The translations under genes and the position numbers were made by a program. The notes under the pieces were generated by a model. It saw only the letters and a list, made by a program, of their open reading frames with translations, ran no database searches and was not told the DNA's origin. This document shows, piece after piece, positions 27,472-62,615 of a DNA stretch of 64,000 nucleotides. The DNA is taken from positions 16,188,816 to 16,252,815 of the forward strand of contig OZ316895.1 in NCBI GenBank assembly GCA_973895155.1, written 5' to 3'. The stretch is from Marsupella aquatica. Lineage: Eukaryota; Plantae; Marchantiophyta. Position 1 is the first letter of the stretch, and each line of letters starts with the position of its first letter.

Positions 27472-28947
27472 TCGCCACGCCCTCAATGCCCAGTTCCATT
27501 CTTCGTCTCCGCTGCGTTTACCGTGCACTCCTTTCTGTGCCTTTGCGTTGCGTTTGGGCGAGAGTTGGTGTTGTTTTTCTGGTGGCTTCCTTGGCTTCCT
27601 TTCGCTGCTTCGAATCCCTGCCCTTCATCGGTTCCTTGCTCTGCGGCAGAGGGGGAGAGAGGGACGCAGTGGTGGTTTCGAATCTGTGAATCTGTGAATC
27701 TGTTCGGGTTTCGGAGCACCACTAACGCACAACACACGAGAGAGCGAGAGCGAGAGAGTCTGTTTCCGAGAGTGGGAAGGAAGTCCCCGTGTTTGTTTGA
27801 ATCTGTGAAAAAATTGGTTGGGAGCAGCGAGCGGGGTGTCGTTACTGGCCAGCCTGTTTTTCTGGTTCTTGCCAGGAAGAGGAGGGGGCGGGGGTGGAAT
27901 TCGTGGTTGTGCTGGTGTGGGCGGTAGGAAGAGGGAGGAGAGAAATAGACACCCGTTCTCAGTTGTGTGGCGATGGAGAGCATGTGGAAGAGGAGTGGGA
28001 GATGAGGAGAGAGGAGCACGGCGTTGCTGAGTGATGTGACTGCATTTTCTCCATTCCATTATTGAATCGCCGTTCTGCTTCCAGTCGAGTGCGGTGAATG
28101 TTAGCGATCGCCATCCGTGCATTTTTATTCGAATGCACAGTGACGATCGGTTTTTTGTGTCTGTCGTGGAGGAAGAGGAGAGGTCAGGACTGGCTGGGTT
28201 GTGGAGTGGTTAAAAATAGCGCAGTCTGGGGGTCCGTCCAAATCTGCCAAAGCATGAGGAGAACGGTCTGAGAGGTTTCTACCTATTCGGAAGTCTCACG
28301 CGTACACGGGAGTGTGGCGGAAGAAGCCGCTGGATTTGGAAAATGAGATAGGCACCTTGCGGCCCTGGATTGAATGCGTGGCACTGTACCGCTGCCGAAG
28401 TCTTCCCTCCTGCCCTTAGGAAGATTTCTAACCTGGGACAAGCACTCGTTTCCCTCGCCCTCGACTGAGTCCAGCAGTTTGCGATAGTCTTCATTGCCAT
28501 GATGCCTCGTCTTCCCTTCAGTAGAAGCTCCAGCTATAGAGCCCCAAGGTAACGTCCGAGGCCGTCGTGCTAGAGCCAGTGACGTTCGCTTTCTTCGGTG
28601 CGATCTTACAGTTTCCAATTTCCGGACTCTTCGATTTTAGAAATATTGGGAACTAGCGTGGATTTCTCCTGCGCTCTCTCGCTTGTTCCGGTTCTTAGCC
28701 CGTGTCATCGTGTCGCTCACACTGCTGTCTCCCATTCTCCAAGTGACGTCCATCAGATTTGTTCATGCCCTCTCGCGTCCTTCCTGCGTTCTAGCTAATC
28801 CTCAGGACCATCCCTTCCCGCCAACACGGCGGATGTGAAATTTTCGATAGCAATTGTTGTAGAGACTGCCCCGCCTTGGAGTGCAACTACCAGGTTTCCT
28901 GGCAAAGGTCTTCTGAAGCGTCTTAAAGCGTAGATGTCTGAAAAGCC

Positions 28948-31545
28948 ATGAGGAGTGCGTACCCTAGCTCTCAGTCATTTTTCGATTCTACGTCCGATTC
29001 GATCAGAGCAGAAGACATTGAGAAATGCAGGAGTAGTGCCTCGTTCAGTTCATTGGCGGACTTGTTCACAAACCCTTCTAGTAAATCTGACTTGTTCCCG
29101 CACACTAGGGCTCCCGTTTCCGTAGCAGAGGAGGTTCGTTTTCCTGCGAAGAAGAAGAGAGAGTGTGAAGAGAGGACCTCCATTTGGCACGAGTGGGGCT
29201 CCGGAGAATGTCAAAGTGAGAATGTCGCTGAGGAAAGTTCAGGTTTCACGTCAAATTTGATCCGTGGTGGCAAATCTTCGATCTTGTGTCCGAGTTCGTT
29301 TCCGAACCTGGGATCTGCCAATATCAGCTTGTTGACCGAGGACTTCACGTTCCCTGCTCGTAAAAGACGAGAGGAGGGAAGTTCCTGGCGTGAGGAGAGG
29401 ACTTCGTGGCAGGACTGGAGCACAAGCGTAGCTCCCAAGAGAAGAGAGCAAACAAGGACGGGTAGCTCCCCTGTAGTTGGTTCAATTCAGGATATGTACC
29501 TGAGTAAGCCCTGCACCAAACCGTTGGATTTTGTTATCAGCTCTAAATCGAGCCCTTTCTCTAGTCTTGGGGCTCCCGTGAAGAGCGCCTCGGAAGAGGT
29601 CTCCTTTCCAGCCAGGAAAAAGAGGGAGGAGAGAAGCTTCTGGCAGGAGTCTAGCTTGGATGGTAGCACCCAACCGGATTGTGTAGTCGTTGCGCCTCCT
29701 CGGCAGAGCGCGCCCGGTGTGGGTTCACTTGCAGATATGTATAAGAGAAAAGCACCTAGCGGCTTATTCTCCAAGGGCGCTGTCAGCGGCTCGGAGGAGG
29801 TTATTTTTCCCAAAAGAAGGAATAACGCAGACAGAAATGCTTGGAGAGATTGGACAAACACTGGATACAGTGACTATGAGGATGGAGAGGACCAGGATGG
29901 CTTCCGCGAAGAGAATTCACCTAAGCCTATTATGGTGGTCGTTGGCACGGAGACTGGCTTGGCATGTCCAGCAGTGAATTCACCATGCAGCATTGAAGGC
30001 TCTAGCAGATTCTCAGTTAGTGAGAATTCGCCATTGTCTGAATGTATGAGCAGATCGTCTGTTCGCAAACCAGGCGGTGGTGCAGTGGGTGCATTGCAGT
30101 CATCGAGCATTCAAGTACAAGTTTGTGAAGAGGTGTCGGGTCCCATCAAAGGTCTGATGTGCAATGTGGATGAATCAGGACACGTCGATCATCAAGCTGA
30201 GAGAACCATGGACGGGGGAGAGGCCTCTGATGTTACTGACGACATTGGGGCTAACGTAGATCATGTGCAGGAGGGAAGCTTTCGATATTTTACGAGTGGA
30301 CAGAGGCGTGGTCGAAGTACTGGTAAGTACCCACCACCTCTACGGTCTCTCTCGAGACCGGGACAATCTCGAGTCCCTACTCACATGCCATGGGTTCAAC
30401 TCCAACCTATTCGAAGCAAAGGGAGATTCGTACTGCAAGAGGTGAAAGTAACCCAGCCCGTTGTTTTTCAGCCCATCAGGACGGGGGGCCGCTTGGTTTT
30501 GCAGCTGATCGGACAAGAGAAGAGCTTCCATATAGGAGATGAAGTAGCGAGACACCGTGGAAATGGTGCAGTCGCCGAGGCTAAAGTCACAGTTACCTCA
30601 GGAAAGGGAGGCTTGCAAGAATCGTTGACGGTGAAGACAGAGGTGAAGGTAGTAGAGAAGACAGACGTGAGTCAATCCCTCGACAACGTTAGAAGAGAAG
30701 GAAGTGAGAGAAGGAAGATTTCCAATGTACGATCAGCAGAGATTGAGCAAAGGAAGAAATCTGCAAAAGTTTGGCCAGTCGTAGGAACGTCCTGGGAAGC
30801 ACTACCGGGAGACGGGGTTGCGGCTGATATGTGGGACAGGAAGTCAAGTAATGTTCGGGAGTTGCGGTACATGACAGACGAGATGGTTGTGTCTTCTGAC
30901 CGATGCCCCGAGCGGGACAGAACCATCCCTTCCGAGGGCGGCCTTGCTCCAGATAGATCGTGGCTCCTTGGGAAGTTGTCCACCGAAAGTAGAACTTTTG
31001 ATGCGAGAAAGTCACTGCATTCCGGAAGTCAATTCCGGAATGCGGTGGATCGTTTGGGGCAAAAGGGAAATGTCATCTCGATTCCCAGAGTGAGAGAAAG
31101 TGCTCCTCTTCGTCTGCAGTTCCAAACGTTGCCTCGAGCCGCAAGCTTGCGGAATGGGCTATCTGGGCTCAACTGCCCGCGCGTTGAAGGAGGAGGTAAT
31201 TTGGGAAGGAGCAGCAAGAGCATCAAGAGTTCGTCGCTTGCTGATGCTGCCGCGATAGAGTCTGGAAAGGAAGAGAGGACTTCGGATCCCGTTCCAGCTC
31301 GAGCTCAGGAGTCGAGACCTTCGCTTTCCGTGTACCAAGGGATAATTCGGGACAGTTTTCTAAGTTTAGCTACTGCACATTCTTTCTTAAGGTCTCTGAG
31401 GACGAGGCCTGACATTCCCGGCGAGCTTGACCCGAGAGTGCCAAGCTGTAAACCTCCTGTTGCATCTGTGTTTTCTTGCGCTGATGGGGTGGGTACACTG
31501 CATCATGAAAAAAACTTTTGGGAGCAGCAGCCGTGCGTGTCATAA
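28948..31545 (+). CDS. FANTASTIC FOUR (FAF)-like protein, 865 aa, single coding exon
   Basis: Intact long ORF with an in-frame stop just upstream; FAF domain YPPPLRSL...R.KGRFVLQEV...FQPIRTGGRLVLQL (30328-30510); upstream VGTETG motif; C-terminal FW..PCVS. Confidence 0.85.
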   Translation: MRSAYPSSQSFFDSTSDSIRAEDIEKCRSSASFSSLADLFTNPSSKSDLFPHTRAPVSVAEEVRFPAKKKRECEERTSIWHEWGSGECQSENVAEESSGFTSNLIRGGKSSILCPSSFPNLGSANISLLTEDFTFPARKRREEGSSWREERTSWQDWSTSVAPKRREQTRTGSSPVVGSIQDMYLSKPCTKPLDFVISSKSSPFSSLGAPVKSASEEVSFPARKKREERSFWQESSLDGSTQPDCVVVAPPRQSAPGVGSLADMYKRKAPSGLFSKGAVSGSEEVIFPKRRNNADRNAWRDWTNTGYSDYEDGEDQDGFREENSPKPIMVVVGTETGLACPAVNSPCSIEGSSRFSVSENSPLSECMSRSSVRKPGGGAVGALQSSSIQVQVCEEVSGPIKGLMCNVDESGHVDHQAERTMDGGEASDVTDDIGANVDHVQEGSFRYFTSGQRRGRSTGKYPPPLRSLSRPGQSRVPTHMPWVQLQPIRSKGRFVLQEVKVTQPVVFQPIRTGGRLVLQLIGQEKSFHIGDEVARHRGNGAVAEAKVTVTSGKGGLQESLTVKTEVKVVEKTDVSQSLDNVRREGSERRKISNVRSAEIEQRKKSAKVWPVVGTSWEALPGDGVAADMWDRKSSNVRELRYMTDEMVVSSDRCPERDRTIPSEGGLAPDRSWLLGKLSTESRTFDARKSLHSGSQFRNAVDRLGQKGNVISIPRVRESAPLRLQFQTLPRAASLRNGLSGLNCPRVEGGGNLGRSSKSIKSSSLADAAAIESGKEERTSDPVPARAQESRPSLSVYQGIIRDSFLSLATAHSFLRSLRTRPDIPGELDPRVPSCKPPVASVFSCADGVGTLHHEKNFWEQQPCVS

Positions 31546-35519: not shown

Positions 35520-36178
35520 GGCACTCATCACAACCCCAATATTAGCGATGTTTTCTATCTCTAATGTACATTGTGCACTGAACATGTTCCAAGACACAAA
35601 AGCCCCGGGTAACCACTAATGCTGCCTGCATACAGTATCACTCTTCCCTTTCCAAAGAGGCACTCAACCCCCACCATTTTGTTATCTGGATTTAAAAGCA
35701 CAAGCCACCATAGTATAGTGCCAATGTCGACATCCACAATTCCAGTTCCACAGAGGTGGAGCATTCAGCACCCTCAATCTGGATATCATTTTGCCTCTGG
35801 ATCATACCCTGTTCAGGTCTAAAGAAACGAGCCTCCCCCTCCTGTTTGACCACCAGTTTTTCCAGACAATCAGGTCCGAATTCCCTTACGGAGTGGATGG
35901 AGTTTCCATATGGCATCAAACGCCTCAGGGACCCCTAGCAAGTAACACATTTCATTTGGGGTCCCATCAAGCAAATCACTCTCAAGGGCCCCCACATATG
36001 TACATTTGTTATCTGGATTGTGCCAAATGCAAGCTTTATTTTTTTAGTTTTCCTATCAAGTGGGGTTCTAAAGATACCAGCCCTCCATTCCATACCGATC
36101 TTGTCCTTGATCCTGTGTAGGCAAACAGTCCAACTCCTTTCACAACACAAATAACAATGATTTAGCTGATTGGGTCTC
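35520..36178 (-). mobile_element. Decayed L1-like LINE, 3' part; target of the Gypsy-type insertion
   Basis: GGL remnant (reverse complement of ccagccctccattc, ~36077-36090) lies downstream of the FWS..WHWLS motif found on the other side of the insertion. Confidence 0.35.
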
Positions 36179-37236
36179 TGTCATGCCGAGGGACAGTGCC
36201 TTTTGTGCACATCGGCATGTCCCTCGCATGCCCGCTAGGTATGTAGTTAGGGCTAGTGTACTACTTGAGTTAGTGTCATGTTCTTGTAGCGAGTCTGGGC
36301 TGTTCTTGAAGCAAAAGGGGTTTGTTAGTGTGGCGCCTGGACCTGGTCCTACTTAGGGCATGTTTTTCTTTATCGTTCTTCAGTTCTTCTTGAATCGCTG
36401 TTGACAGAGCTCAGACAGTGCTCGTCGGTTCCGTACACAGGATTCACACAGTGATTCGTTAGATGCTCCCGGCCGATCTTGGCATCCCGCCAGTTTTTGA
36501 TTCAATTTCAGTACGATTGTTTCTCTTACGCCTTTTATTCAAGAAGAACTGCCGAGTTGGCGGTGAGGGGAAGAAGATAGAAGACATTCTCGTCTCAGAT
36601 GTTTATGTCGGTTCAGACAATTTCCGTCGAAACCGGTGCAATTTCTTTGAGCAACAATGGAGGGACGAGTTGAAATTATGGGTTCAATATGGTGTTATGT
36701 GTATACTTAACATAAGTATACACATAACGCTCCCGTTGGAGCCTGACTTTTCTTCCCAGTTGTACCCGGGGACCCTTTGCTGCTTCCGACTGTGGCTGCT
36801 GACTGCCACTACCTTTTTCGGGCCAATTTTGCGATGTTTTTGCAGGAGGGGCTGTCTGCATAGGGCCACGAGCCCCTTCTTGGCTGCGCCTCCCTGCGCC
36901 ATGCTACCTTCCGGCCGGCTACAAGCCACGGGTTGCAGGTCGATGCCTTTACTCTTGCTCGGAGCCCTGTAAAGGGTCGCACGCCAGGTTTATTTTCGCC
37001 TCACGGCTGTGTTCGTACTGCGTCCTTCTCCCTCTGTGTATACACATCGGGGGCGACAACCTTCCCTTACCATTTTCTTTTCCTTCTGCTCACCGGTACG
37101 TGCATAGGGCATCGTGCCCTCCACTCGATTAGGACTCGTTTTCTTTCTTTCCCCTTTGCCGTTTTCTTTCCTTCCCCCCGGTTGCCAGCACTTAATAGGG
37201 GAGAGGGAGCGAGTACAAGCGAGAGCTGAGAGAGAG

Positions 37237-37700
37237 AGGGCACGAGGCCCTATGAAGAATTAAGGAGGGGAGGGGGAGTTCACGTCGACTCCCCTCGGGA
37301 GCCCTGCCAAGCACGAGGCCCAACTTACAGGGCATTAGAGGAGGGGAAGGGAAGCGCAAGGAGTGGGCACGAAGCCCTATGCTGACATAAAGAGGGGGAG
37401 GGGGAGTAATCATTCGACTCCCTCTCTCGGGAGTCATCCTGCAGGGCACAGAGCCCACTTTTAGCATTAAAGCAGGGGAGGGGGAATTCAATTAGACTCC
37501 CTTCTCTTGGGGGTAGGTTCACCTGTGGCCAGGCAGGAGCGCAAGGAGAGGGCACCCGGCCCTAGGCAGCATTAAGAGGGAGTCGATTCCTTTTGCCAGG
37601 CCCAAAACTCATTTAAGGAGGGGAGGGGGAGTTAGTCGCTCCCTTCTCTTCGGGAGCACATCAGGAGCCAGGAGGGGGGGCGTGAAGCCCTATGCAGGGC
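37237..37700 (+). repeat. Array of ~6 degenerate GC-rich units in the retroelement leader
   Basis: Recurring gggcac..gccc, then attaaggaggggagggggag, then gactccc..ggga. Confidence 0.75.
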
Positions 37701-38486
37701 CCGAGCCATTGATTGGGGCCCCATTTCTTTCCTTTCGCTGTGCCCTCGCCCTTTTCTTTTTCGCCTCGCTTCGCTTTCTCTTTTATTCACCTGCAGCAAA
37801 GCGCACGGTGCCCCCGAGTGTGTATACACACTCGTTCGGTTGCCGGTCCCCACCTGATTTTTCTTTTCGGTAGACGCGCACCTTCTGTCAGTTCCCGGGT
37901 CCACATCGGGGCCCAATGTATACACATAACTGGGCCCCATGTTTATACATTTGAAAAGGCCCAGGTATACACATGGGACGGCAATCCGACATCGCCTATG
38001 TATACACATAGGCAAGCACAACGGGGACACAATTTGAGGTTTTAAGGGTCCCTTTCCCTGATGGTTTTTCGACGGTGACGGGTTTTCTCAGTGCTTACAC
38101 ATTCTACACATTTTTGCCTCGCATTGTTTGTTTCCTTTGTGGGTTTCATTTCCTAGCCTTGGGGCTGCCATTTCTTTTTCTTGTCAGTTTCTTTCCCATC
38201 GGCACCCCAAGTGAGCATGCAGCATGTCAGCAGAGGAGCCGACTCATAGCAGCTCATCGCCACCAACACCCAGGTACCACTTGCGGAGTGATCCACGATC
38301 GTTGGTGCCAATTTCATTGGAGTCTCGGCAATTTCGATGACGTCAACAGACAGCAGCAGCACCCACACCACGCAATCCTTCTGCTACATTTGGCGGTCGC
38401 TTCACCTCTACCCGAAGCCTGCTATCACTTCTTTGCCTTTTTCTCCTTCTGCATCAGTGATTGTTCCAGCTTCACCGACATACAGC

Positions 38487-39835
38487 ATGGATGCCAGTCA
38501 CTCATCTAGCTGCATTGAGCGCTTCAGCGGGCGGCCAGGCACTGTCTCTTTACGTGAGTTCAAATCCACTTTCTACACTGTCGTTTATGAATTGGTGTTG
38601 AAGTATGGCAGCAATTTCACAAATGCTTTTGCATTTAAGTAGCTAGCCAGGTATGTGCACCATGAGGCTTTGGATGTGTATGAGCAGCACTCTCAACGGC
38701 TGCTTGCTGTCACACAGTTGCCTAACCCTACGTATGCCAGTGCAATTGCGGCGGCCTCACAATTGGCCTTACAGAATGCCATTGCAGCCCATGCTGCTGC
38801 TCCTGCCACTTCCCCTCCTACTCCAGTTCCTACCACTGCGCCAGTTACTCCCACTGTCTTGGCACAGGCTACATCAGGCATTTGTCCCACCATTGATTCC
38901 CCTGCCTTTGCTGATCCAATGGCTGAGTTTTTCCAGGTTCTTGAATTGGAATTCCCAATCAAGAGTGCTGATAAAATCATGCAGTTGGCCACCTTTGTGA
39001 GGCAGCGCGATGAAACATTGAAGATGATGTATCGCCGGCTTCTCAAGCTAAAGGAGGACACCCAGAGCATCACTGACCTGGAAGCTGCTCATCGCTATCT
39101 TTGCGCATTGGAGGGCACACCAGCTCTCCATTTTCAAGTGTTGTAGCAAGTATTCTCAGAGTTTGGAGACAACTACACCTTGCTCAATGTCTATGACACT
39201 GCTGAGAAACTTGAGTTGGCCCATGCACATTATGAGGCCAGTATTGCGCGTCCACCGCGATCCAGGTACCAAGCTACTGCCCCTACACTGGCCACTCCTT
39301 CCCGTGTGCCACAGTATGGTTCCAAGATCAAGCCAGCACATGCTGCTTCATGCTGCCATCTTGCAACTACTGTGGTAACCCTAATCACAAGGCTAATGAA
39401 TATGATATTGTTGTTGAGGACCTGTCTTGTGATTTTTGCGGGAAAGTGGGCCACTTGGAGGCAGTTTGTTTTGCCAAATTCCCCGATAAAAAGCAGCTAC
39501 GACAGCAGGCCACTCATCCTGCTCCTGTTTCCACTCCCCCACCAGCTAGGAGGGCTCCTACTGCATCAATTGCTCCTCCTTCCAGTGGCAAAGCATCCAG
39601 TCATAACAAATTGCCCAAGCAGCAACAGAAGCAACCAGCTCAGAAGGACGCTCACAACGCACAGGCAACTCAACTCCAGTCTCTGACTCATGAGGTTGAG
39701 TCATTACGTGCCCAACTTGCCAACATCAAAGGCAAGTCCACTGCCTCTCCTAGTCCTTCTCAACCGGCTGGTCACGTGCAACCCATCCCTAGCCTAGGCA
39801 CCACTGACAGTTCATCACCCATACCCGCTCTTTCT
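38487..39835 (+). pseudogene. gag: Retroelement gag, disrupted
   Basis: MDASH..IERFSG..; in-frame TAG at 38640 and 39144; frameshift ~39345; zinc knuckles CNYCGNPNHKANEY (last Cys lost) and CDFCGKVGHLEAVC. Confidence 0.8.
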
Positions 39836-40629
39836 ATGGCTTGCCATTTGATGCTCATATGGGTGAGTGTGTGCTGTCCTCTGCTACACAGCCTGGCCGT
39901 ACAGCAGAATTTTCAGATTCATTCTGCCCTTCCTATTTTGCTTACCAGCAGGCCAGTGCTGCCTCCCGTATTGCTCCCACACGCCGCATTGTACAGGCTG
40001 ATGGTCTTGCTGCTGGTCCTATGACTAGAGCCAGGGGAGCTCGGGCTGTCATGCCCCAATCTTTTCAGCCACTCACACTTGCTGAAGAGCGCACCTTGTT
40101 GGCGAGGGGCGAGGGAGCTGTAGCTACATCCATTCCACCACCAGGTGCTGCTGACATTTCACAGGGAGTTGTTTTTCCTGAGCTGCTTGAGCATTTCACC
40201 TTCGGTATGGCACAAAGGATTCTTACCACTCCACTTTTCAGTTGCCATGATTTACAGTTGGATGCTAGAGCTGTCATCAGAGCGCTAGAGGGCTCACTGC
40301 ATTCTTCATCAGCCCCTGTGACACCGGTTTTGGAGGTCCAATCTCATGTACATCCTGGACCTTCTTCTTCTCCATTACATGCTTCCACTGGTTTGGCTAT
40401 CCCAGTACCGATTTCTAGTGGTAGAGATGACAGTATTGCTGCAGATTGTGTGACCAGAGCTACACTTGATTCTGGTCATGCTGCTCCATCTTTCTTGGCT
40501 ATGCTGTTGAGTGGGAAGACCGTGGACACTAACTCCCTTCACAAGGTACCTCATCATTTGCCAAAAGTGGTGCCTAGTGACAGGACTTTAGTTTCCACCA
40601 CCATTGCCATTGTTGACAACAGGAATTCA

Positions 40630-40980
40630 GCAGTCAAGTTGGAGGGTCACACTCCTCAGGTGGTCATGCTAGACACAAGCGCTCAACCAGTAATCTTGGG
40701 CATTCAGTTTGCCAAGAAGATGGGACTGCTGACTGATCATTTACAGCAATCCAGGTGGCACATTCGGACTGCTAGTGGCACTATGAAGGATGTGTTGGGT
40801 GAGAGTTCTACTTTACTCACTCTCACTTTTAATGGAGGTACAGATCAGGAACTGCATTTCCCAGTCAGATGTTTGGTTACCAATGCCACTACGTATGATG
40901 TGCTCATTGGCCAAGAGGCTTTGTTCCCACCAGGTTTTACCATTAACAACTGGCATGAGCATGCATACTACAGAGTTGAT
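40630..40980 (+). pseudogene. Retroviral-type aspartic protease domain
   Basis: VMLDTSAQ (Asp codon 40672; DTG reads DTS), IRTASG flap, YDVLIG. Confidence 0.8.
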
Positions 40981-41337
40981 TGGCATACGGATGGCTCACA
41001 CTTGGGATACATTCCACTTGATTTGCATGGTGCCCATACCCCTATGGCTCACCACTGTGTGTTGAAAGCAGTGCACACAGCTACCTATGTCAACCACCCA
41101 TTGCAGGATTGGATTGAGGAGGATGATGATGAGGTGGCTACTGCACATGCTGCTGCACGTATAGCAGCCCTTTCCAGCAACGTGGATCATCAACCAGAGG
41201 TGGTACAACGGCTCCAAGCAGCCCATGGACCTTTGGTGGCTGCATTGCACAAATTTGAGGACCTTGGGCAGCACAATGGACAACCAATAGCCCCAATCTT
41301 GAGCGCACCAGTTACATGGACTCCTCCTTCAGATGGC

Positions 41338-42275
41338 CTTACATTGCTTGAGCTTTTTGGTGGCATTTCTACAGGCCTGGAAGCTCTCCTAAAGTCTGGC
41401 ATGGTGGTGAAGCAGTACATCTATGTGGATATTGATCCAGGTGCAAGGCAAGTGGCTGAATCCCGTCTGCTGGAATTTTCAGAGCGATTTCCCCAACAGT
41501 TTCCGCATAGTGCATGGACGTCTGCATTTTCTTTCTTCCCTCCAGATATCCAGCTTGTCCAGCACCGGCACTTAACCCTTCTTGGCTCCCTTGATTTGAT
41601 CATAGCTGGTTGGGAATGCCAAGGGTTTTCAGCTGCTGGTCACGGTGCTGGACTGCATGATTCTCGTTCTGGCCTTTTCACAGCATTGGTTCAAATTCTC
41701 ACCTGGGCTCAATCCCTTTATCCTGCTATTGGTTATATCATTGAGAATACTCCATCTCAGTTTGACCAGCGTCCACAGGTCAAAGAGGATTTCAGTGTGG
41801 TCCAGCACTACTTGGGACCACCCCTTCTCATTGATGCAGTGCACTGTGGTTCTTATGCACATCGTCTTCGTAACTTTTGGACTAACCTTGCACCACCTTC
41901 CTTGCTGGAGATGGCTCTTCACCACACATCCAGGGACACTAACCTCACAGTGGACCAGATTTTGGATGCTGACAGTCCTTGCGAACCAGTTACACGGCAA
42001 GAGCCAACACCTTGGTATCCAGCCAATACCATTGGACAACCCCGTGCTGCTTGGCCTACATTTGTGTCCTTTCCAGGTGCACATGCTTTTTAGGGTGATG
42101 GTCCTGGTCTGGTTTATCGACATTCTACCGGTACATGGGATGAACCTAGTCCTGAGGAGAGAGAACGGGCTATGGGCTTCCAACCCGGTACTACAGGTCA
42201 CACCAAAATCACCAGGCTGGCCAGGAATGCTTTACTTGGCAGGGTAATGGATCTCAATGCTCTCACTTGGCTTAT
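41338..42275 (+). pseudogene. C5 cytosine DNA methyltransferase domain, DNMT3-like, inside Pol
   Basis: Motif I LELFGGISTG; II YIYVDID; III DI; IV DLIIAGWECQGFSAAG (Cys 41617); VI IIENT; VIII AHRLRNFWTNL; after one TAG (42091) in the same frame, IX EERERAMGF and X TRLARNALLGR. Confidence 0.92.
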
Positions 42276-42629
42276 GGTCACTTGCATCCTTTTTCAGGTG
42301 TCCATTCCTCCAGCATTAGGAGCTCCAGCCCTACCACTCCACAGTGTTGTTGCATGGCATCCAGACCAGGTGCACTTACCTCTGTCCAACACTCACCACT
42401 TCAGTCCAAGTGTTGGGGGGGAGGAGGTCCCTTGTAATGCGGCTGACATTATTTCTGAGTTTCATGGTGTGGACCACTTCAGATCAGCAGGTACAACAGG
42501 CCTTGGAGAGGCCTCATCACCTTATCAGCAGCATGCTAGCAGCTTGGACAGTGGAGAGGCTGGCACTTCTGGCTCTTCAAGCACGAGTACATCAGGTCCT
42601 ATTCCTAGTGTTGCCAACTACACATTTAT

Positions 42630-44040
42630 CATGGGCAACCACCTGAGTAAAAGACAGAAGGACCAACTGCTGAATTTTCTCCTCAAGCATGAGAATGTGT
42701 TTGCTTTCTCTATGAAGGACTTGGGTAAGTGCAAGACTATGCAGTTCTCCATTGAGTTGGTTGATGAAACACCTATCTTCAGGCGGAGACACCGTTTGAG
42801 TAAGCATGAGTGGCAGCTGGTGGATGAGAGGTGCCAAGAGCTCTATGAAGCTGGTCTTATTCAGCCATCTACATCAGATTTTGCAGCAGCTACAGTGATG
42901 CCAGCAAAGAAGGATTCCAGTGGATTGTGGACAGAGAAGCGCATGTGTGGGGACTACAGGCCATTGAACCTGGTCACACCCCATGACAGGTACCCCATGC
43001 CGCGGCCAGAGGAGCTATTTGACAGTATTGGAGACTCAGACATCTTCACTCTTGTGGATCTAAGGCAAGGCTTCAACCAGATTTTGCTGCTTGCAAAGGA
43101 TCGCAAGAAAACATCTTTCCATGGTAGTAACCAACTATGGGAGTGGTTGGTGATGCCATTTGGCTTGAAGAATGCGCCCATATTCTTTCAAAGAGTCATG
43201 GACCAGGTTCTTCAAGGTGCTGAGTTTCTGAAATGCTACATTGATGATGTGTTGGTCCACAGCAAAGGATTTGACCAGCATCTACTTGACCTTGAGGAGC
43301 TATTCATGAGGCTTAAGAAGGTGAACCTAAAGATACAGCCCAAGAAGTGTGAATTTGCTGTCAGATCAGTAGTATACCTTGGGCACCGCATTCTTCCAAA
43401 TGGAACCATGGCTCACTGGGCCAAGGTGGCATCCATCTTGGAAATGCCCACTCCTACCGACGTTCACACTTTGAGGAGCTTTATTGGGTTGTGCAATTAC
43501 TACCGGATCTACATCAAAGATTTTAGTACCATTGCACACCCATTGTACTCTTTGTTGAAAAACAATGTGCCTTGGACATGGAGTACAGATGCTGAGGCAA
43601 CATTTGCCACTTTGAAGGAGAAGCTCTCAAAATACCCAATGCTAAGAAGACCTGATTTCAGCAAGGTCTTTGTGCTACACACAGATTGGAGTGCCCTTGG
43701 GATTGGTGCCATTCTGGGCCAGCATGATGAGGAAGGTAAAGAGTATGTCATTGCCTATGCATCCAGGAGCAACAATCAGGCAGAGAGTCATTATTCTTCT
43801 TATGAGGGTGAATGCCTTGCTGTTGTGTGGGCTATCATACATTACAGGCCCTACCTCTATGGGACCAGGTTTGTTCTCTACACCGACCACCAGCCCTTGA
43901 AGTGGTTGATGACCAATGACAAGCTTACTGGCAAGCTTGCTCGTTGGGCGCTCATACTCCAGGAGTATGATTTTGAGGTAATTCATAGGCCTGGTGTGAC
44001 ACATCAAAATGCTGACACTATGTCCTGCAGCCCTTTGATT
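42630..44040 (+). pseudogene. pol: Reverse transcriptase + RNase H (Ty3/Gypsy)
   Basis: RMCGDYRPLN, DLRQGFNQ, VMPFGLKNAP, YIDD (43237-43248), YLGH, FIGLCNYYR; RNase H LHTDWS, YEGECLA, TDHQPL, NADTMS. Confidence 0.97.
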
Positions 44041-44294
44041 GCCTCTGATGATCCCTCAGATGCACGGTAGGATTTTGACCAGGTTTCCATCCTGCCTACA
44101 TTTCATGCATCTACCTATCTTGCTTTGTTGCCATGCTACATTGTTGACCAACCTGTGGTGGACATATGGGAGAACAACGACACTCTGAGATTTTTGCAGG
44201 ATGGGGAGTACCCCACCCATGTTACTGCTGCCCAGAGAGACCGAATTCAGCAAAGGTCCAAGCGCTACTTGTGAAAGGGAGATTATCTTGTGCC

Positions 44295-45400
44295 GCTGCT
44301 TGCCAGACAGGGAAGTGGTGGTTCCACCCATTCATGAGAGGGTTGGCCTTATCCGTAAGGTACATTCTAAGCTTGGTCATTTTGGTGTTAAGAGGACTTA
44401 TAGCCTCTTGGTCCCCCATTATCATTGGAGAGGCATGCATGGCTAGGTTCGAGATGTTATTGCCCGGTGTGAGCAATGTGATAGGGTAAGGACTTCTTTC
44501 ACATCTCGGCAACCCACACTTCATCCACTCCCTATTCAGGGCATGTTTTATCGTTGGTCATGTGATTTGGCTGGAGAATTACCCCTCACATCTCGGGGTA
44601 ATCTCTACATCATGATCATGATAGAGCATTTCTCCAAGTGGATAGAACTTGTGGCATTGCCAGATAAGACCTCCCGTAGCACCAGCCAGGCATTCTTGCA
44701 ACAAGTTCTCAGCCGCTTTGGAGCTTGTGCATAATGTCTCACTGACCAGGGCTCAGAGTTTAGAGGAGAGTTCCAGGAGCTGCTTGATCAGGCTCTCATT
44801 GATCATCGCCGGACATCACGAGATCACCCACAGGCAAATGGCTTGGCAGAGCGCATGGTTCAGACATGCAAGAAGGGCCTTCGGAAGATCTGCCTCACCA
44901 AAAACAAGGAGGATTGGGACCTGGCCTTACCCTACATTGCCATGGGGTATAGGATGTCCAGACATGCATCATTGTCTAACTTTTCTCCCTACTTCTTGTT
45001 GTTTGGTCGTCACCCAGTTCCACCTTCTGCTATTGCTTCTCACATGCTTCAGGTGGTGGACTTGGATTCAGCTGTGACTTGGTCTGATGTGATCTCTGAG
45101 AGGGCTGCCCTATTCAGGAGGGTTATGCCCATGGCCATGGAGAATTTGGCCATTGCACAGCTCAGGGACACACTGCGTTATGCACACACACGAGGGGGCA
45201 CTTTTCAGCCCAAGGTCAGGAAGTTTGAAGTGGGAGATTTTGTGTACTTGCAGCGGCAAGCTAACGACACCCTGGACACCTCTACCAGTCGCACTATTCT
45301 CAGGGTCAAAGCTATTCGACCGTTTGGAGTGCTAGAGTTACAAGGGGCAGATGGGCGCACAATTGCTGACAATGCCAAGAATTGCGCCCCTTGTCATCTG
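44295..45400 (+). pseudogene. DDE integrase, disrupted
   Basis: HSKLGH...CEQC zinc finger; WSCDLAG, TDQGSEF, NGLAERMV catalytic triad; FEVGDFVYL; stops at 44444 and 44732; frameshift ~44292. Confidence 0.95.
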
Positions 45401-45457
45401 CCTAACCTGGATCCCACCATTGTGACTTCTACTTGGATTCCACCTGTGGACTACCCT

Positions 45458-45592
45458 TGCAAAGTGTGTTTGCGAATTGATGATGCTTACCAGATGCCGC
45501 TGTGTGACAATTGCAATGGAGGGTACCATCTTTTCTGCCTTCGGCCTGAACTTCCCCAGGTGCCAGAAGGGTTATGGTTTTGCCCTTCCTGT
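45458..45592 (+). other. PHD finger fused to the integrase C-terminus
   Basis: C4-H-C3 pattern: CKVC..LCDNCNGGYHLFCLRPELPQVPEGLWFCPSC; ORF stop at 45610. Confidence 0.92.
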
Positions 45593-45825
45593 GCTCCACG
45601 TGCTATCTGACTTTTCTTCAGCCCTCCTTTTGGCTGTGGTCTGGGGGGGATACAGAGGTTTACACCTCCACTACGTACATACCACCTCAGTTGCTTTTTC
45701 TTGGCACTTGTGAATGTGATTGAACTTTTTCTATGCATGTTGGTTGCTAGCAGCTTGCACATATGCATTGCCGGTGACTTGTATGTTTTCGATACACTAT
45801 GGCTACGATACTATATGTCACGACA

Positions 45826-46560
45826 TCTCCCACTTAGCCAATGCCACTGCTTTTTGCTCAGACTGCTCCAGAAATGTTTTGCACCAACCCAAAATTTTGC
45901 AACCATCCAAGCCTCCTAAACCCTGCCAAAAGCCCATTCAAAATGTCAGTAGGAAGAACTCAGCTGCCAACCAAAGAGAATAAGTTGAAGGTCATCTTGA
46001 CCGCTAAAGCCTGAGACTAAAATTAAGGCGCTGCAATTTAAAGTAAATTGTCTCAGTCCATAAGAATGAAACAGAGCAGCTGGTTAATCTCGAGGAGGGA
46101 TTATCCAAATTGCCGAAAGAATCATGGAGGGAAGAACTGGGTAAACCAAGTGCAAGTGAAGTTTTCAGCACCTTAATAATTTTTTCTCAAGGATATTGAA
46201 TGCAGATCAATCAAGCTACCATATTTGAGGCATTGGACCACATGAGAGAACTGAAAAATTTAGAGACAGTTTGCAAATTGAGAAAAATATGAAATTCCTG
46301 TGCTTAAACAACAAATATTTGTAAATTGATAGTTGGAGATGCTAGTAGACAAATGAAGACCTTAAACAACTCTTGCCTCAATGCCTCGATGTTGAATACC
46401 AACCTAAACACTAAACACTTGCTTGGGGAAACAAATCCAGAGGAATGCCCGAAGTGTGAAAGACCACACAAGCCAAGTGAACAACAGAAGCAAACCAAGG
46501 CCATCCCAAAGATACAAGACACGGCTAAGAATCCAACTGACAAGTGTATGCTAAATTCAA
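45826..46560 (-). mobile_element. Decayed L1-like LINE, upstream part of the element split by the Gypsy-type insertion
   Basis: Minus strand reads LGLP (~46140-46155) and FWSSLSKKQWHWLS (~45833-45875), typical post-RT L1 motifs. Confidence 0.4.
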
Positions 46561-47888: not shown

Positions 47889-48770
47889 GGCCATGCCTCG
47901 ATACATTGTTGTAAGTGCCACTCTCTCTGCATGACAGCAAAGAAACCACGCATTTTGGCTCTTGGTTTGAGTTTAGTTTGCCCAAGTTAGGGCCATAGTT
48001 GAGTTGGTATTCTAGCTTGCAAGATGAACTGGGTCTTCTTGAAGCAAAGCCGTTGTTAAGGGCACCTTTGGCATCATCCTCTATTTAGGTCTGACTGGGC
48101 CCATTGTCACTTAGTTTTCTTGAATTATTGTTGAGGCATAGCTCGCCACTTGGTAGATGGATTTTTAGACAGTGATTTGTTGGATACTCTCTTACATTCC
48201 AATTTTAGTACTCATTTTCTTCTATGGCCCTGCGTTTGCCCATTTGCATCCTTTGTGCCTTCGTCACCCACAACCATGGCCATCCCCTTTGGGCTTTTAG
48301 TATGTTTAGTGGCCTCCTGCACTTCCTCCACAAGTTTCTGTTTGTTTCTAGCCGTGACAACACCTGCAGGTTTTCATCCATTTTCAGGCCTGTAGCTCCT
48401 CCTTTTCCTGCACTTTCCAGCTGTGCACATATATGCACTTTGGGGACAGTCAACAACGTGATGGGCCTTTTCTGGTCCATATTTTTCACAAGGAAATAAG
48501 GGCTGAGCACTGTTTGCCTCACTTTACTCAACCTTTTTGGCTCTCGCACCTGTGTACACGAAGCAATGGGGCCATTTTTATGCCTGTCCCCATGTTTTGT
48601 AGGATGTCTCAACATGCATCATTATCTAGTTCCTCTACTTAGGTTTGGCTATTTGGGTAGGCACCCACTTCTACCTTCTCCTATAGCCGTCCATCATTAT
48701 CTAGTTCCTCTCCTTAGGTTTGGCTATTTGGGTAGGCACCCACTTCTACCTTCTTCTAGCCGTCGTGACT
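47889..48770 (+). mobile_element. Old, internally deleted relative of the 36179 element
   Basis: 5' part matches the family 5' end (catgcc, ttcttgaagcaaa, ttttcttgaat, acagtgatt.gtt.gat.ctc); 48590-48690 matches integrase 44940-45037; local ~72-bp tandem duplication at 48618-48762. Confidence 0.65.
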
Positions 48771-59512: not shown

Positions 59513-60599
59513 AACAAGGCAAAAGAATGCTTTGAATTGTCAACTCATGCACAACAATGACCATGCAAGTGCCCCCAGCCCCCCAGCGCCAGGAATTTGA
59601 CCTGCATGTGCATGAGCATTTGTGGTACTGTACAGTCAGGACTGTCAAGTAACCTAAGTTCATTTAGTCATGGCACCATAACCTGGACCTGACCAAAGCT
59701 ACCTGATCATATTAAACTGAACAATAAAAAGTGTGACTGTAGGGTTCTGACAACAAGATAAGATGGACAAATACCGCTTGAGGCCCATCACAATAAGCCA
59801 ATAATTCTTTTAATGAAAATGATAATGATGTTCCACGCATGAACTTGAAATCTTTTAAGAGTGTCTCAGACAATTGAGCTCAAGTACAATCTGCACATTT
59901 TATACCCTGTAAGGTGGCGGTTTAAACCCCTCTTTTTGTGAAATAATGTTTTTTGGCTGTTCTTCTTTAAATAGAAATTGGCTCGCTGTGGGTGCGCGAA
60001 GCACATTCAACAGTGTTTTTGCTTGCTTTCATGTCCACAGTGAAGCGTACTTAGCTGATACGCAAAACATTCTCTACAAGAGTAAGTACACATTCATGCA
60101 GCTCCAGCACTATAGCATCAACAAGTGTGATATAGCTTTAATAGTTAGAATCAAAAGTTAAATGAGAATTCTAAATTTTTACATGGAATTGTACGATCAA
60201 ATACATGTTTCTGTGTGTATTTGTGACACAAAACCCAAACCCTTATATGCATGGATACTGGAATGATATATAATACATAGTCATCAAACTATCTAATGTT
60301 AAGGAAAGAGACAGAAGTAAGGGAGATTATGACTATTAGGTAGGGATAGGTTAGTTAGTGATTAGCGAGGAAGCCCATGGCAGTACACCTGAAGGAGACA
60401 TGATCATGCCACCTACTTAGTGGTTGTCACTATCAAACCTGACTGCGGTAGAAAAGAATCAATATGAACATAACAAGTACATCCACCATAGTCTAGCTCC
60501 ACAAGCTCCGCTATGACATGATCTCTCTCACCCTCCACAACCTTTGCACACAGAAGACTGAATGTGAGCACGCATTGAGTTCCCCTTGGGTATACCCCA

Positions 60600-61951
60600 T
60601 GTCATGCCTAGGTACATGGCTGTCGGTTCTGCTCGCCATGGTCCTCGCATGACTGCCAAGCCTTTGGTACCATTATGTTTTTGTCGGCTTATAATTTGGG
60701 TTTTGTTTTCCCAAGTTATGGCCCAATTAGGGCCATGGTTGACTTTATGTTCTTGTAGGGCAAGTATGGGTGTTCTTCAAGCAAAGCCATTTTTAAAAGA
60801 CACCTTTTTGCTTCATCTGTTGTAGTTGACATTTTGTTCTTGTGGTGCGTTTTTGTGTTCTTTGAAGCAAAGTCATTTTGCTTCATTCACTACTTAGGTA
60901 GAGTCTTGCTCACTTGTTAGCTAGTTTTTCTTGAATTATTCTCGAGAAAGTGTGAGCAATTCAGATAGCTCTCCATTCCATACAGGGAATTAGACGTTGA
61001 TTTGTTAGATGCTCCAGATTGATCTGGCATCCTGTCTGTTTTCATTTCATTGTCGGTTAGTTAAGTACACCCGTTTCTATGACGCATTTTTATTCAAGAA
61101 AAACTTGATGGCTTCCATGGGGTATAGGATGTCTTAGCATGCATCATTGTCTAATTTTTCTTCCTACTTTTTGCTGTTAGGTAGGCACCCAATTCCACCT
61201 TGTGCTATTGTGCCTCCATGCTTGCGATGGTGGATTTGGACTCAATGGTAACCTGGTCTGATGTGATCTCTGAATGGGTTGCTCTATTCAAGAGGGTTAC
61301 GCCGATGGCCATGGAGAATTTGGCCATATCACAACATAGGGAGACACTCCGGTTTGCACACACCGGTGTGGGCAATTTTCAGCCCAAGGTGAGAAAGTTT
61401 GAAGTAGGGAATTTTGTTTATTTGCAGCGGCAGCCCAATGACACCTTGGATACTTCTACTAGTCCTACCTTTCTCAGGGTTAAGTCCATTTGGCCACCCG
61501 GAGTGCTACAGTTACAAGGGGTAGATGGGCACACAATTTCTGATAATGCTAAGAATTGTGTTCCTCGTCACTTGCCTAACCTTGATCCCACTATTGTGAC
61601 TTCAACTTGGATTCCACCTGTGTAAGGTGTGTTTGTGCATTGACGATGCTGATCAGATGTTACTGTGTGATGATTGCAATAGTGGCTACGTACCATCTCT
61701 TCTGCCTCCGGCCTGAATTGACACAAGTACCAGAAAACTTATGGTTTTGCCCTCCATGTTCACCACTTGCAACTTGATTTGCTTCAGATCTCTTAATCTT
61801 TCTTGGCTATGGTCTGGGAGGATATAGAGGTTTACACCTCCACTACGTACATACCATCTCATTGTTTGAGTACATTTGCAACATGTTTCATGTTTTTGAG
61901 TTTTATGAACTTAATGGTTTTGTCACATGTTTACAATGTTTATGTCACAAC
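60600..61951 (+). mobile_element. Non-autonomous deletion derivative of the DNMT/PHD Gypsy-type family (5' end + integrase C-terminus + PHD + 3' end)
   Basis: Starts TGTCATGCC; 60600-61105 is homologous to 36179-36551; 61115-61860 is homologous to 44940-45690; ends tatgtcacaac, matching 45814-45824. Confidence 0.85.
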
Positions 61952-62615
61952 CCTACACCATCCCCTGGTCTATGTGACCCTGGAACTCAAATGAGTGTTA
62001 TCCTAGTCTTCAAATTCCTAACTAGTACTATTGAAGTAAATAGGTTATAATAGTGGCATAACCTAACATACCTCTTTTGTACGTTATCACACAAGCCTTG
62101 ATGTCGGTGGTACTTCAAGCCAAACAGTTCAAACAACCAATGAGATGAGCTGACAATCCAGCTCATGAATTTCTCAACAGGCAAGAGGCTTGGTCTAAAC
62201 AAATTCCATCAACTGTGAAATACTAAATCACTGGTTTGACAAAACAGGATTTGAAAAAACTGAATACATAATATCTTTGGAGACTGTGAGCCACTGCAAC
62301 ATCTCCAAAAACCATGTATCAAGTTGCAAGTTAAAATCTGAATCACCAAATTTTTCAAGAAACCAAGAGACCCTTGGAAAGAGACCCAAACACCAAAGTT
62401 TCTCAAGAATCCTAAGATACACAAAATGTTTTTTGTGATTGTAATCGACCCAAAGAAGGTTTAGTTTAGTTTAGTTTAGTTCAGTTTCTCCTTGACTGGG
62501 GAGAATGTATTGACAAGTGATTCCTTTGCTTCTTGACTTCAAATTGTATTGGATTCTCTGTTTGTACTCCAGCTCTCGCTCCAGCTAGATATGGATGTCA
62601 TAATTGGAACCTCAA

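What the first reader, a model, noticed from the sequence alone, without database searches (positions are those of the whole stretch)
36179..45825. Complete Gag-Pol-integrase retroelement apparently without LTRs
Seen: the element starts TGTCATGCCG, ends TGTCACGACA (both variants of the palindrome TGTCATGACA) and is flanked by TCTC/TCTC. The 215 bp after the Pol stop do not repeat the 5' end. An independent copy starts with the same 9-mer at 60600 and aligns over the last ~30 bp up to tatgtcac.ac (61951), where homology stops; its flanks are ccca/ccta. The outside flanks look like two halves of one LINE fossil. Established: Ty3/Gypsy replication needs a repeated R region for strand transfer, while TGT ends with 4-bp TSDs are typical of RT-less Ginger transposons. 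Inference: this family regenerates its ends by a non-canonical route or sits between LTR elements and Ginger-like transposons.
Basis: partly seen in the sequence, partly recalled or inferred. Interest (0 to 1): 0.85.

Follow-up and report, generated by a model that had tools for sequence, protein, structure and literature searches.

The report
Gypsy retrotransposon cutting inside its LTR
This decayed jumping gene, likely from a liverwort, does belong to a family with end repeats, but the repeats are split and reshuffled, and the family likely inserts itself by cutting a short palindrome in the middle of its repeat instead of using the ends that its copying enzyme would make.

Summary
Ends, TCTC duplication and absence of a terminal repeat in this copy are real, but the family is not LTR-less. 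Contigs from three runs join the 3' segment B (45650-45825) to the 5' segment A (36179-36538) over two bases, and A to B: the full form is A-coding-B-nn-A-B, as reported for KnitGypsy-Dnmt3. The window copy is the reduced form A-coding-B (17 of 33 scorable relatives; 16 full). 4-bp duplications are exact in 13 of 17 copies. A self-complementary primer site follows A and a G-tract precedes B, so reverse transcription would give an ordinary LTR of order B-nn-A, with the integrase site CA-nn-TG inside it. That junction (GACA-GC-TGTC) is kept in relatives down to 41% RT identity. Inferred: integrase cuts this internal junction and the RT-made ends are joined to each other. Unexplained: the mirror-image product was seen in 0 of 23 copies. 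No cDNA, RNA or enzyme data. The scan noted the same reading before on another genome (e1-9812644).

The parts
36175..36178 (.). left 4-bp target site duplication TCTC
   Evidence: host-element junction also in a run X3 contig covering 35700-36232 with no difference (that run may be the window's source)
36179..36538 (+). repeat A (360 bp): starts with the TG half of the integrase site; inferred promoter, R and U5; repeated near the 3' end in full copies
   Evidence: joints 45825->36178 and 36538->45650 in contigs of X1, X2, X3; homologous layout in relatives
36382..36393 (+). predicted self-primer (inferred 5' end of the RNA), 12 of 12 complementary to 36539-36550
   Evidence: (I18); lies 30-33 nt after TATAA in 23 of 23 relatives (offsets 26-40 were scanned)
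36539..36550 (+). predicted primer-binding site, directly after A; no tRNA-type TGG there
36551..38225 (+). long leader with G-rich ~128-bp spaced repeats and inverted repeats
   Evidence: role not tested
38226..39820 (+). decayed gag region with two CCHC-like knuckles (stops at 38640, 39144; frame change near 39350)
   Evidence: (zf-CCHC E 0.006, below cut-off); tblastn match to the same place in relatives
40633..40923 (+). aspartic protease
   Evidence: PF13975 E 3.8e-5, below the curated cut-off
41344..42260 (+). DNMT3-like cytosine methyltransferase domain in Pol (stop at 42091; motif IV reads WECQ); 3' limit set by eye
   Evidence: PF00145 E 3.2e-6; all 29 PDB hits are DNMT3A/B/C; 61 long proteins match the domain, most with RT, integrase and PHD
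42931..43968 (+). reverse transcriptase and RNase H
   Evidence: PF00078 E 9e-28, PF17917 E 1.6e-38
44327..44830 (+). DDE integrase: H2C2 zinc domain and core (stops at 44444, 44732)
   Evidence: PF17921 E 1.6e-13, PF00665 E 1.8e-13
45458..45592 (+). C-terminal PHD finger
   Evidence: PF00628 E 7.9e-10
45643..45649 (+). G7 polypurine tract directly before B
   Evidence: same position in relatives L161, L162, L165
45650..45825 (+). repeat B (176 bp): ends with the CA half of the integrase site; present twice in full copies
45826..45829 (.). right 4-bp target site duplication TCTC
   Evidence: X2 and X3 contigs from 45799 into the flank with no difference
60600..61951 (+). second, internally deleted and diverged copy: A, self-primer 60923-60934, primer site 61094-61105, integrase 3' part, purine tract 61816-61821, B; right end uncertain
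   Evidence: (79.5% over 761 bp)

Best explanation
This is a decayed A-coding-B copy of a DNMT- and PHD-carrying Ty3/Gypsy family whose full form is A-coding-B-nn-A-B, and the family likely integrates by cutting an integrase site that sits inside its LTR. Shown: the two forms, 4-bp duplications, the 2-nt B|A junction, a 12-nt complement of an A-internal sequence right after A1, a G-tract right before B1. Inferred cycle: RNA starts in A1 and ends in A2; its 5' 12 nt prime minus-strand synthesis (Tf1-like); the G-tract primes the plus strand; ordinary strand transfers would give linear cDNA [B-nn-A]-coding-[B-nn-A]. Integrase would nick after CA on both strands of CACGACA-nn-TGTCATG in the left LTR, which gives in one step two 3'-CA ends with 2-nt 5' overhangs, and insert them 4 bp apart. 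The RT-made ends (end of A, start of B) are joined to each other, before insertion (2-LTR circle) or after it (host repair), giving A-coding-B-nn-A-B. Loss of one B-nn-A unit (1-LTR circle, annealing of B1 with B2 during repair, or later recombination) gives A-coding-B, as here; lacking A2 it would be unable to make the first strand transfer alone. The DNMT likely methylates the element's own cDNA and the PHD finger likely steers insertion; neither was tested.
For: Same-family joints 45825->36178 with one letter between (spacer GC or AC) in X1, X2, X3 (2 studies) and 36538/36539/36533->45650/45654. Metagenome relatives: 16 full and 17 single forms among 33 independent scorable 3' ends of 80 loci. 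Spacer 2 nt in 16 of 16. A2|B2 lies exactly at primer-site boundary plus purine-tract boundary in 8 of 16; +1 nt in 2, 1-3 nt lost in 4, large losses in 2 (L013 over a TACA microhomology), as expected of end joining. Duplication 4 bp exact in 5 of 8 full and 8 of 9 single copies. Primer/PBS pairing at least 10 of 12 in 19 of 23 relatives, offset 32 nt from TATAA in 19 of 23; two double-sided changes between window and these relatives; a different complementary 13-mer pair at the same places in L161. Junction GACA-GC-TGTC after a G-tract in L161/L165 (56% RT identity for L161) and L162 (41%); L165 is B-GC-A-B with 106 bp identical. Solo A-B of 479 bp with CAAT/CAAT in L056. Precedent: foamy virus integrase cleaves the palindrome at LTR-LTR junctions (PMC1180852, abstract and section titles); HIV-1 2-LTR circles can feed integration (PMC4372172, abstract); self-priming in Tf1/Tj1 (PMC4600332, passages).
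Against: Two equal junctions should also yield A-B-nn-A-coding-B; none of 23 independent 5' ends has B upstream, so an unexplained bias for the left junction is needed. No cDNA ends, circles, transcript ends or enzyme activity were seen; no listed run is on record as RNA. The window's own A lacks a plain TATAA at the expected place (CTACTTAGG in both copies). Small A2|B2 length variants may be decay (A1/A2 identity 85-91%), and three B1 ends have themselves lost a 15-nt unit. Duplication fails in L075; ends of L010 and L015 were set by hand at a terminal motif. The 80 loci are one family, the best of 599 hits, so proportions are not general.
Confidence: 0.65

Rival explanations
1. DIRS/Ngaro-like end regeneration: the RNA runs from A1 into B2, RT rebuilds both ends by jumping onto the internal B1-nn-A2 template, and integrase processes ordinary linear ends; the primer site and G-tract are used in some other order or are relics.
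For: Predicts only A-coding-B-A-B, which fits 0 of 23 permuted copies; the repeat order is described as DIRS-like in PMC5890265 Fig. 4c legend.
Against: Priming right after A1 and right before B1 would never copy B2; both signals are conserved with double-sided changes across families; A2|B2 falls at their boundaries and varies in length in 8 of 16, while the spacer never does.
Confidence: 0.2
2. Sub-question, compatible with the best explanation: the window copy inserted as a full form and lost B-nn-A later by recombination between B1 and B2, rather than at insertion.
For: Short direct repeats 300-400 bp apart; a solo A-B with duplication exists (L056), as A1 x A2 recombination would give.
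Against: Single forms are not detectably older than full forms (stops per 1000 aa 14.1 vs 11.4, p 0.31; identity p 0.82; 17 vs 16 loci), a weak test.
Confidence: 0.4
3. The single form in the window is an assembly collapse of B-nn-A-B.
For: Contigs do not phase B1 against B2; L161 shows that young copies can collapse in short-read assemblies.
Against: The copy is old (7 stops), and in relatives of similar decay B1 and B2 differ by 6-16%; 8 single relatives with both ends keep duplications, 7 exactly; the second window copy is single too.
Confidence: 0.05
4. One reading: an autonomous LTR-less family between Gypsy and Ginger.
For: No repeat in this copy; TGT...ACA ends and 4-bp duplications.
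Against: Same-family B->A and A->B joints; 16 full relatives; primer site and purine tract present.
Confidence: 0.02

Closest known systems
KnitGypsy-Dnmt3 of Klebsormidium nitens (PMC5890265; passages, parts 3 and 4 of 7 of the text, supplement search; figure itself not seen)
   Same: Gypsy Pol with a DNMT3-like domain; repeats in DIRS-like order (stated in the Fig. 4c legend); K. nitens RTs fall in the same 100/100 clade as the window.
   Different: Host here is likely a leafy liverwort (neighbour gene 68% to Calypogeia fissa). In the parts read the paper gives no termini, duplication, primer site, reduced forms or mechanism for the repeats, and 'PHD' and 'target site' have 0 hits in its main text. 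The two K. nitens proteins found are partial and show no DNMT, so identity with the described element is not proven.
Tf1/Tj1 self-priming Gypsy elements (PMC4600332, passages)
   Same: Primer site directly after the 5' repeat is complementary to the predicted 5' end of the RNA.
   Different: Their LTRs carry TG...CA at the RT-made ends; here the RT-made ends would be AT...AT and TG/CA face each other inside the repeat.
DIRS-order PAT/Ngaro elements with split direct repeats (recalled; order A-coding-B-A-B also stated in PMC5890265)
   Same: Same repeat order.
   Different: They use a tyrosine recombinase; this has a DDE integrase, a protease and 4-bp duplications.
Integrase cleavage of LTR-LTR circle junctions in foamy virus and HIV-1 (PMC1180852, PMC4372172; abstracts); IS3/IS911 circle junctions (recalled)
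   Same: A DDE enzyme cuts a palindromic end-to-end junction and yields processed ends.
   Different: There the junction is formed by circularisation; here it is encoded inside the repeat and copied by RT.
Ginger DNA transposons (recalled)
   Same: TGT ends, 4-bp duplication, Gypsy-type integrase.
   Different: Ginger lacks RT, RNase H, Gag, primer site and purine tract, all present here.

Membership tests
Ty3/Gypsy | Order Gag-PR-RT-RNase H-IN with DDE integrase | tested here: met
Ty3/Gypsy | Two full direct LTRs TG...CA at the ends of the insertion | tested here: not met
   this copy has none; full copies have split repeats
Ty3/Gypsy | Primer site after the 5' repeat and polypurine tract before the 3' repeat | tested here: met
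   by sequence only:
Ty3/Gypsy | 4-6 bp target site duplication | tested here: met
   13 of 17 exact at 4 bp
Gypsy-Dnmt3 (KnitGypsy-Dnmt3 lineage) | DNMT3-like domain inside Pol | tested here: met
Gypsy-Dnmt3 (KnitGypsy-Dnmt3 lineage) | Repeats A-coding-B-A-B | tested here: met
   met for the family, reduced to A-coding-B in this copy
Gypsy-Dnmt3 (KnitGypsy-Dnmt3 lineage) | RT groups with the K. nitens element | tested here: inconclusive
   groups 100/100 with two K. nitens RTs (36 rows, midpoint root), but these are not shown to be KnitGypsy-Dnmt3
Gypsy-Dnmt3 (KnitGypsy-Dnmt3 lineage) | Active methyltransferase | not testable with these tools
   motif IV Cys kept, WECQ-type in most relatives (AGWECQ 39 of 58 motif matches); the K. 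nitens domain was inactive in yeast, called inconclusive
DIRS order (PAT/Ngaro) | Tyrosine recombinase in place of integrase and protease | tested here: not met
   integrase and protease found; no recombinase family in the plus-strand ORFs scanned
Ginger | Integrase only, no RT; terminal inverted repeats | tested here: not met
   RT and RNase H present; only 7 bp of terminal inversion

The most novel reading that the evidence does not exclude
A whole green-lineage clade of Gypsy elements, from chlorophytes to liverworts, has moved its integrase attachment site from the cDNA ends into the middle of the LTR, so that its normal route is junction cleavage at an encoded GACAGCTGTC palindrome plus end joining of the RT-made ends: a third way of integration between LTR elements and circle-integrating elements, and a DDE model for how split direct repeats arise.
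Probability: 0.6. Interest if true: 0.85.

Novelty: new variant of a known kind. Interest (0 to 1): 0.72.

Why it matters
Whether retroviral-type integrases can use an end-to-end junction as their regular substrate has long been argued for 2-LTR circles. This clade would be a natural case in which it is obligatory, with a defined 10-bp substrate that can be tested with oligonucleotides. It would also explain the unexplained DIRS-like repeats of KnitGypsy-Dnmt3, extend DNMT-carrying Gypsy elements to land plants, and predict that LTR finders miss or mis-delimit this clade (about half of the copies have no repeat at all).

Tried and rejected
No whole genome is held for the window, so no genome-wide census. 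No RNA holder listed. A second read-laying on the 60.3-62.3 kb copy gave no result, so that copy's right end stays open. Depths were not used as copy numbers. Flanks as LINE: no Pfam hit in six minus-strand frames; untested otherwise. Age test of single against full forms: no difference. Viral collection: best hits 43% or less, no junction motif of this kind in the 7 examined of 80; used as outgroups only. Inverted matches in L019, L034, L073 are unrelated flanking repeats. Rows dropped before counts: duplicates of one insertion (clusters, plus L055 = L047 by flanks), L024 and L056 (rearranged), L067 and L072 (contig ends), and loci without the 3' end. The REM1 paper was not held, so that element could not be compared. 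Searches for a published mechanism: searches found only PMC5890265 and a 2026 preprint that names Gypsy-DNMT3 without repeat detail in the passages seen (its supplements are closed); Repbase and most subscription papers were not searchable, and figures of PMC5890265 were not seen.
Full report
Observation. The element runs from TGTCATG at 36179 to CACGACA at 45825 between TCTC and TCTC. Its 3' region has no direct repeat of the 5' 2.1 kb (score 27, shuffled mean 29). It encodes Gag with two knuckles, protease, a cytosine methyltransferase (PF00145; all 29 PDB hits are DNMT3 proteins), RT, RNase H, integrase and a C-terminal PHD finger. It has 7 premature stops and about 3 frame changes, so it is a fossil. 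The neighbouring FAF gene is closest to Calypogeia fissa (68%) and so is the RT (84%): the host is likely a leafy liverwort.

Literature lead. PMC5890265 describes KnitGypsy-Dnmt3 and says in the Fig. 4c legend that its repeats are arranged as in DIRS elements, given elsewhere in the paper as A-coding-B-A-B. I read passages and parts 3 and 4 of 7, and searched its 3 held supplements; no termini, primer site or mechanism were seen there. Proteins with RT, integrase, PHD and this DNMT occur in Haematococcus, Chlamydomonas eustigma and Monoraphidium; relatives by RT occur in Closterium, Klebsormidium and Marchantia. In a 36-row RT tree these form a 100/100 clade with the window, apart from 11 other Gypsy rows (midpoint root).

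The window's own family has the split repeats. Contigs of 4 of the 12 listed runs were laid on the element. X1, X2 and X3 (two studies; one may be the window's source) show the joint 45825->36178 with one letter between, that is CACGACA-GC/AC-TGTCATG, and joints 36538, 36539 or 36533 -> 45650 or 45654; X5, a distant holder, shows neither. Only 15 of 91 joints were displayed.

Relatives with flanks. The best 80 of 599 metagenome hits (host not determined) collapse to 67 clusters. Mapping A and B with queries from two natural copies gave 33 independent scorable 3' ends: 16 B-nn-A-B and 17 B alone. Of 16 loci with both ends plus the window, 13 have an exact 4-bp duplication (5 of 8 full, 8 of 9 single), 16 within one mismatch, none at 5 bp; control 0.4%. 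L056 holds a solo A-B with CAAT/CAAT. The B1|A2 spacer is 2 nt in 16 of 16 (GC 7, AC 4, AT 2, GT, TA, AA). Single and full forms do not differ detectably in decay.

Where reverse transcription would start. Directly after A1 lies a 12-mer complementary to a 12-mer inside A: 12 of 12 in both window copies, at least 10 of 12 in 19 of 23 relatives, 30-33 nt after TATAA in all 23. Window and relatives differ by two changes on both sides of the duplex; L161 has a different complementary 13-mer pair at the same places. This is the layout of Tf1-type self-priming (PMC4600332, passages). A G-tract stands directly before B1. By the established rules of LTR reverse transcription, these two signals define the cDNA ends, so the LTR would be B-nn-A. 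A2|B2 is exactly the join of those two boundaries in 8 of 16 full copies; the others gain 1 nt (2), lose 1-3 nt (4) or lose 150-230 nt (2). The extra T seen in L012 and in the window family (36539->45650) is the first base of the primer site, as an unremoved primer base would leave (inference).

The integrase site is therefore internal. The TG and CA termini that abut the duplications face each other across 2 nt within the repeat. The junction GACA-GC-TGTC, a perfect palindrome, follows a G-tract in L161, L165 and L162, RT identity 56% and 41%; these are eukaryotic contigs inside prokaryotic bins, and L161 is a collapsed circular contig, no proof of a real circle. Staggered cuts after CA would give the usual processed ends. 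Integrase cleavage of palindromic LTR-LTR junctions is reported for foamy virus and HIV-1 (abstracts).

What does not fit. With two equal junctions the mirror product A-B-nn-A-coding-B should occur; it was seen in 0 of 23 independent 5' ends. A bias for the left junction is needed; one guess is that it becomes double-stranded long before the right one. The DIRS-like templated model predicts this absence, and keeps 0.2. Nothing here shows cDNA, RNA or enzyme activity. How this copy lost B-nn-A (at insertion or later) is open.

Verdict. The LTR-less reading falls; the copy is a reduced member of the Gypsy-DNMT3 lineage, whose repeat order is in print as one legend line. The mechanism read from primer site, purine tract, spacer and duplications was not found in my searches. 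I had noted it before seeing that the scan recorded the same reading on another genome; that note is not counted as evidence. New variant of a known kind; interest 0.72.

Noticed in passing
window 28942-31545 (+): 867-aa open frame with a FAF (Fantastic Four) domain; best hits are liverwort proteins.
   Followed up: partly
window 48600-48758: Two short tandem fragments about 73% like the element's integrase region.
   Followed up: no
window 36694-36728, 36850-37830: A perfect 16-bp hairpin and a set of G-rich direct and inverted repeats in the leader; possible packaging or dimer signals.
   Followed up: no
window 60570-60599 and 61960-62000: Flanks of the second copy are partly inverted repeats of each other (cattgagttcc / ggaactcaaatg), as if it sat in a fold-back element.
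   Followed up: no
L012 and L049 4205-4495: The 5' A repeat is inverted relative to the coding region in this insertion.
   Followed up: no
L161, L162, L163, L164, L165: Plant or algal retrotransposon contigs binned into prokaryotic genomes; L165 has identical B1 and B2, so a young family.
   Followed up: partly
L161 7415 and L165 2311: In this family the primer site and the start of B share CACTTGA, a microhomology that might help join the cDNA ends.
   Followed up: no
DNMT motif IV, window and relatives: Reads W-E-C-Q rather than P-C in most relatives; effect on activity unknown.
   Followed up: partly
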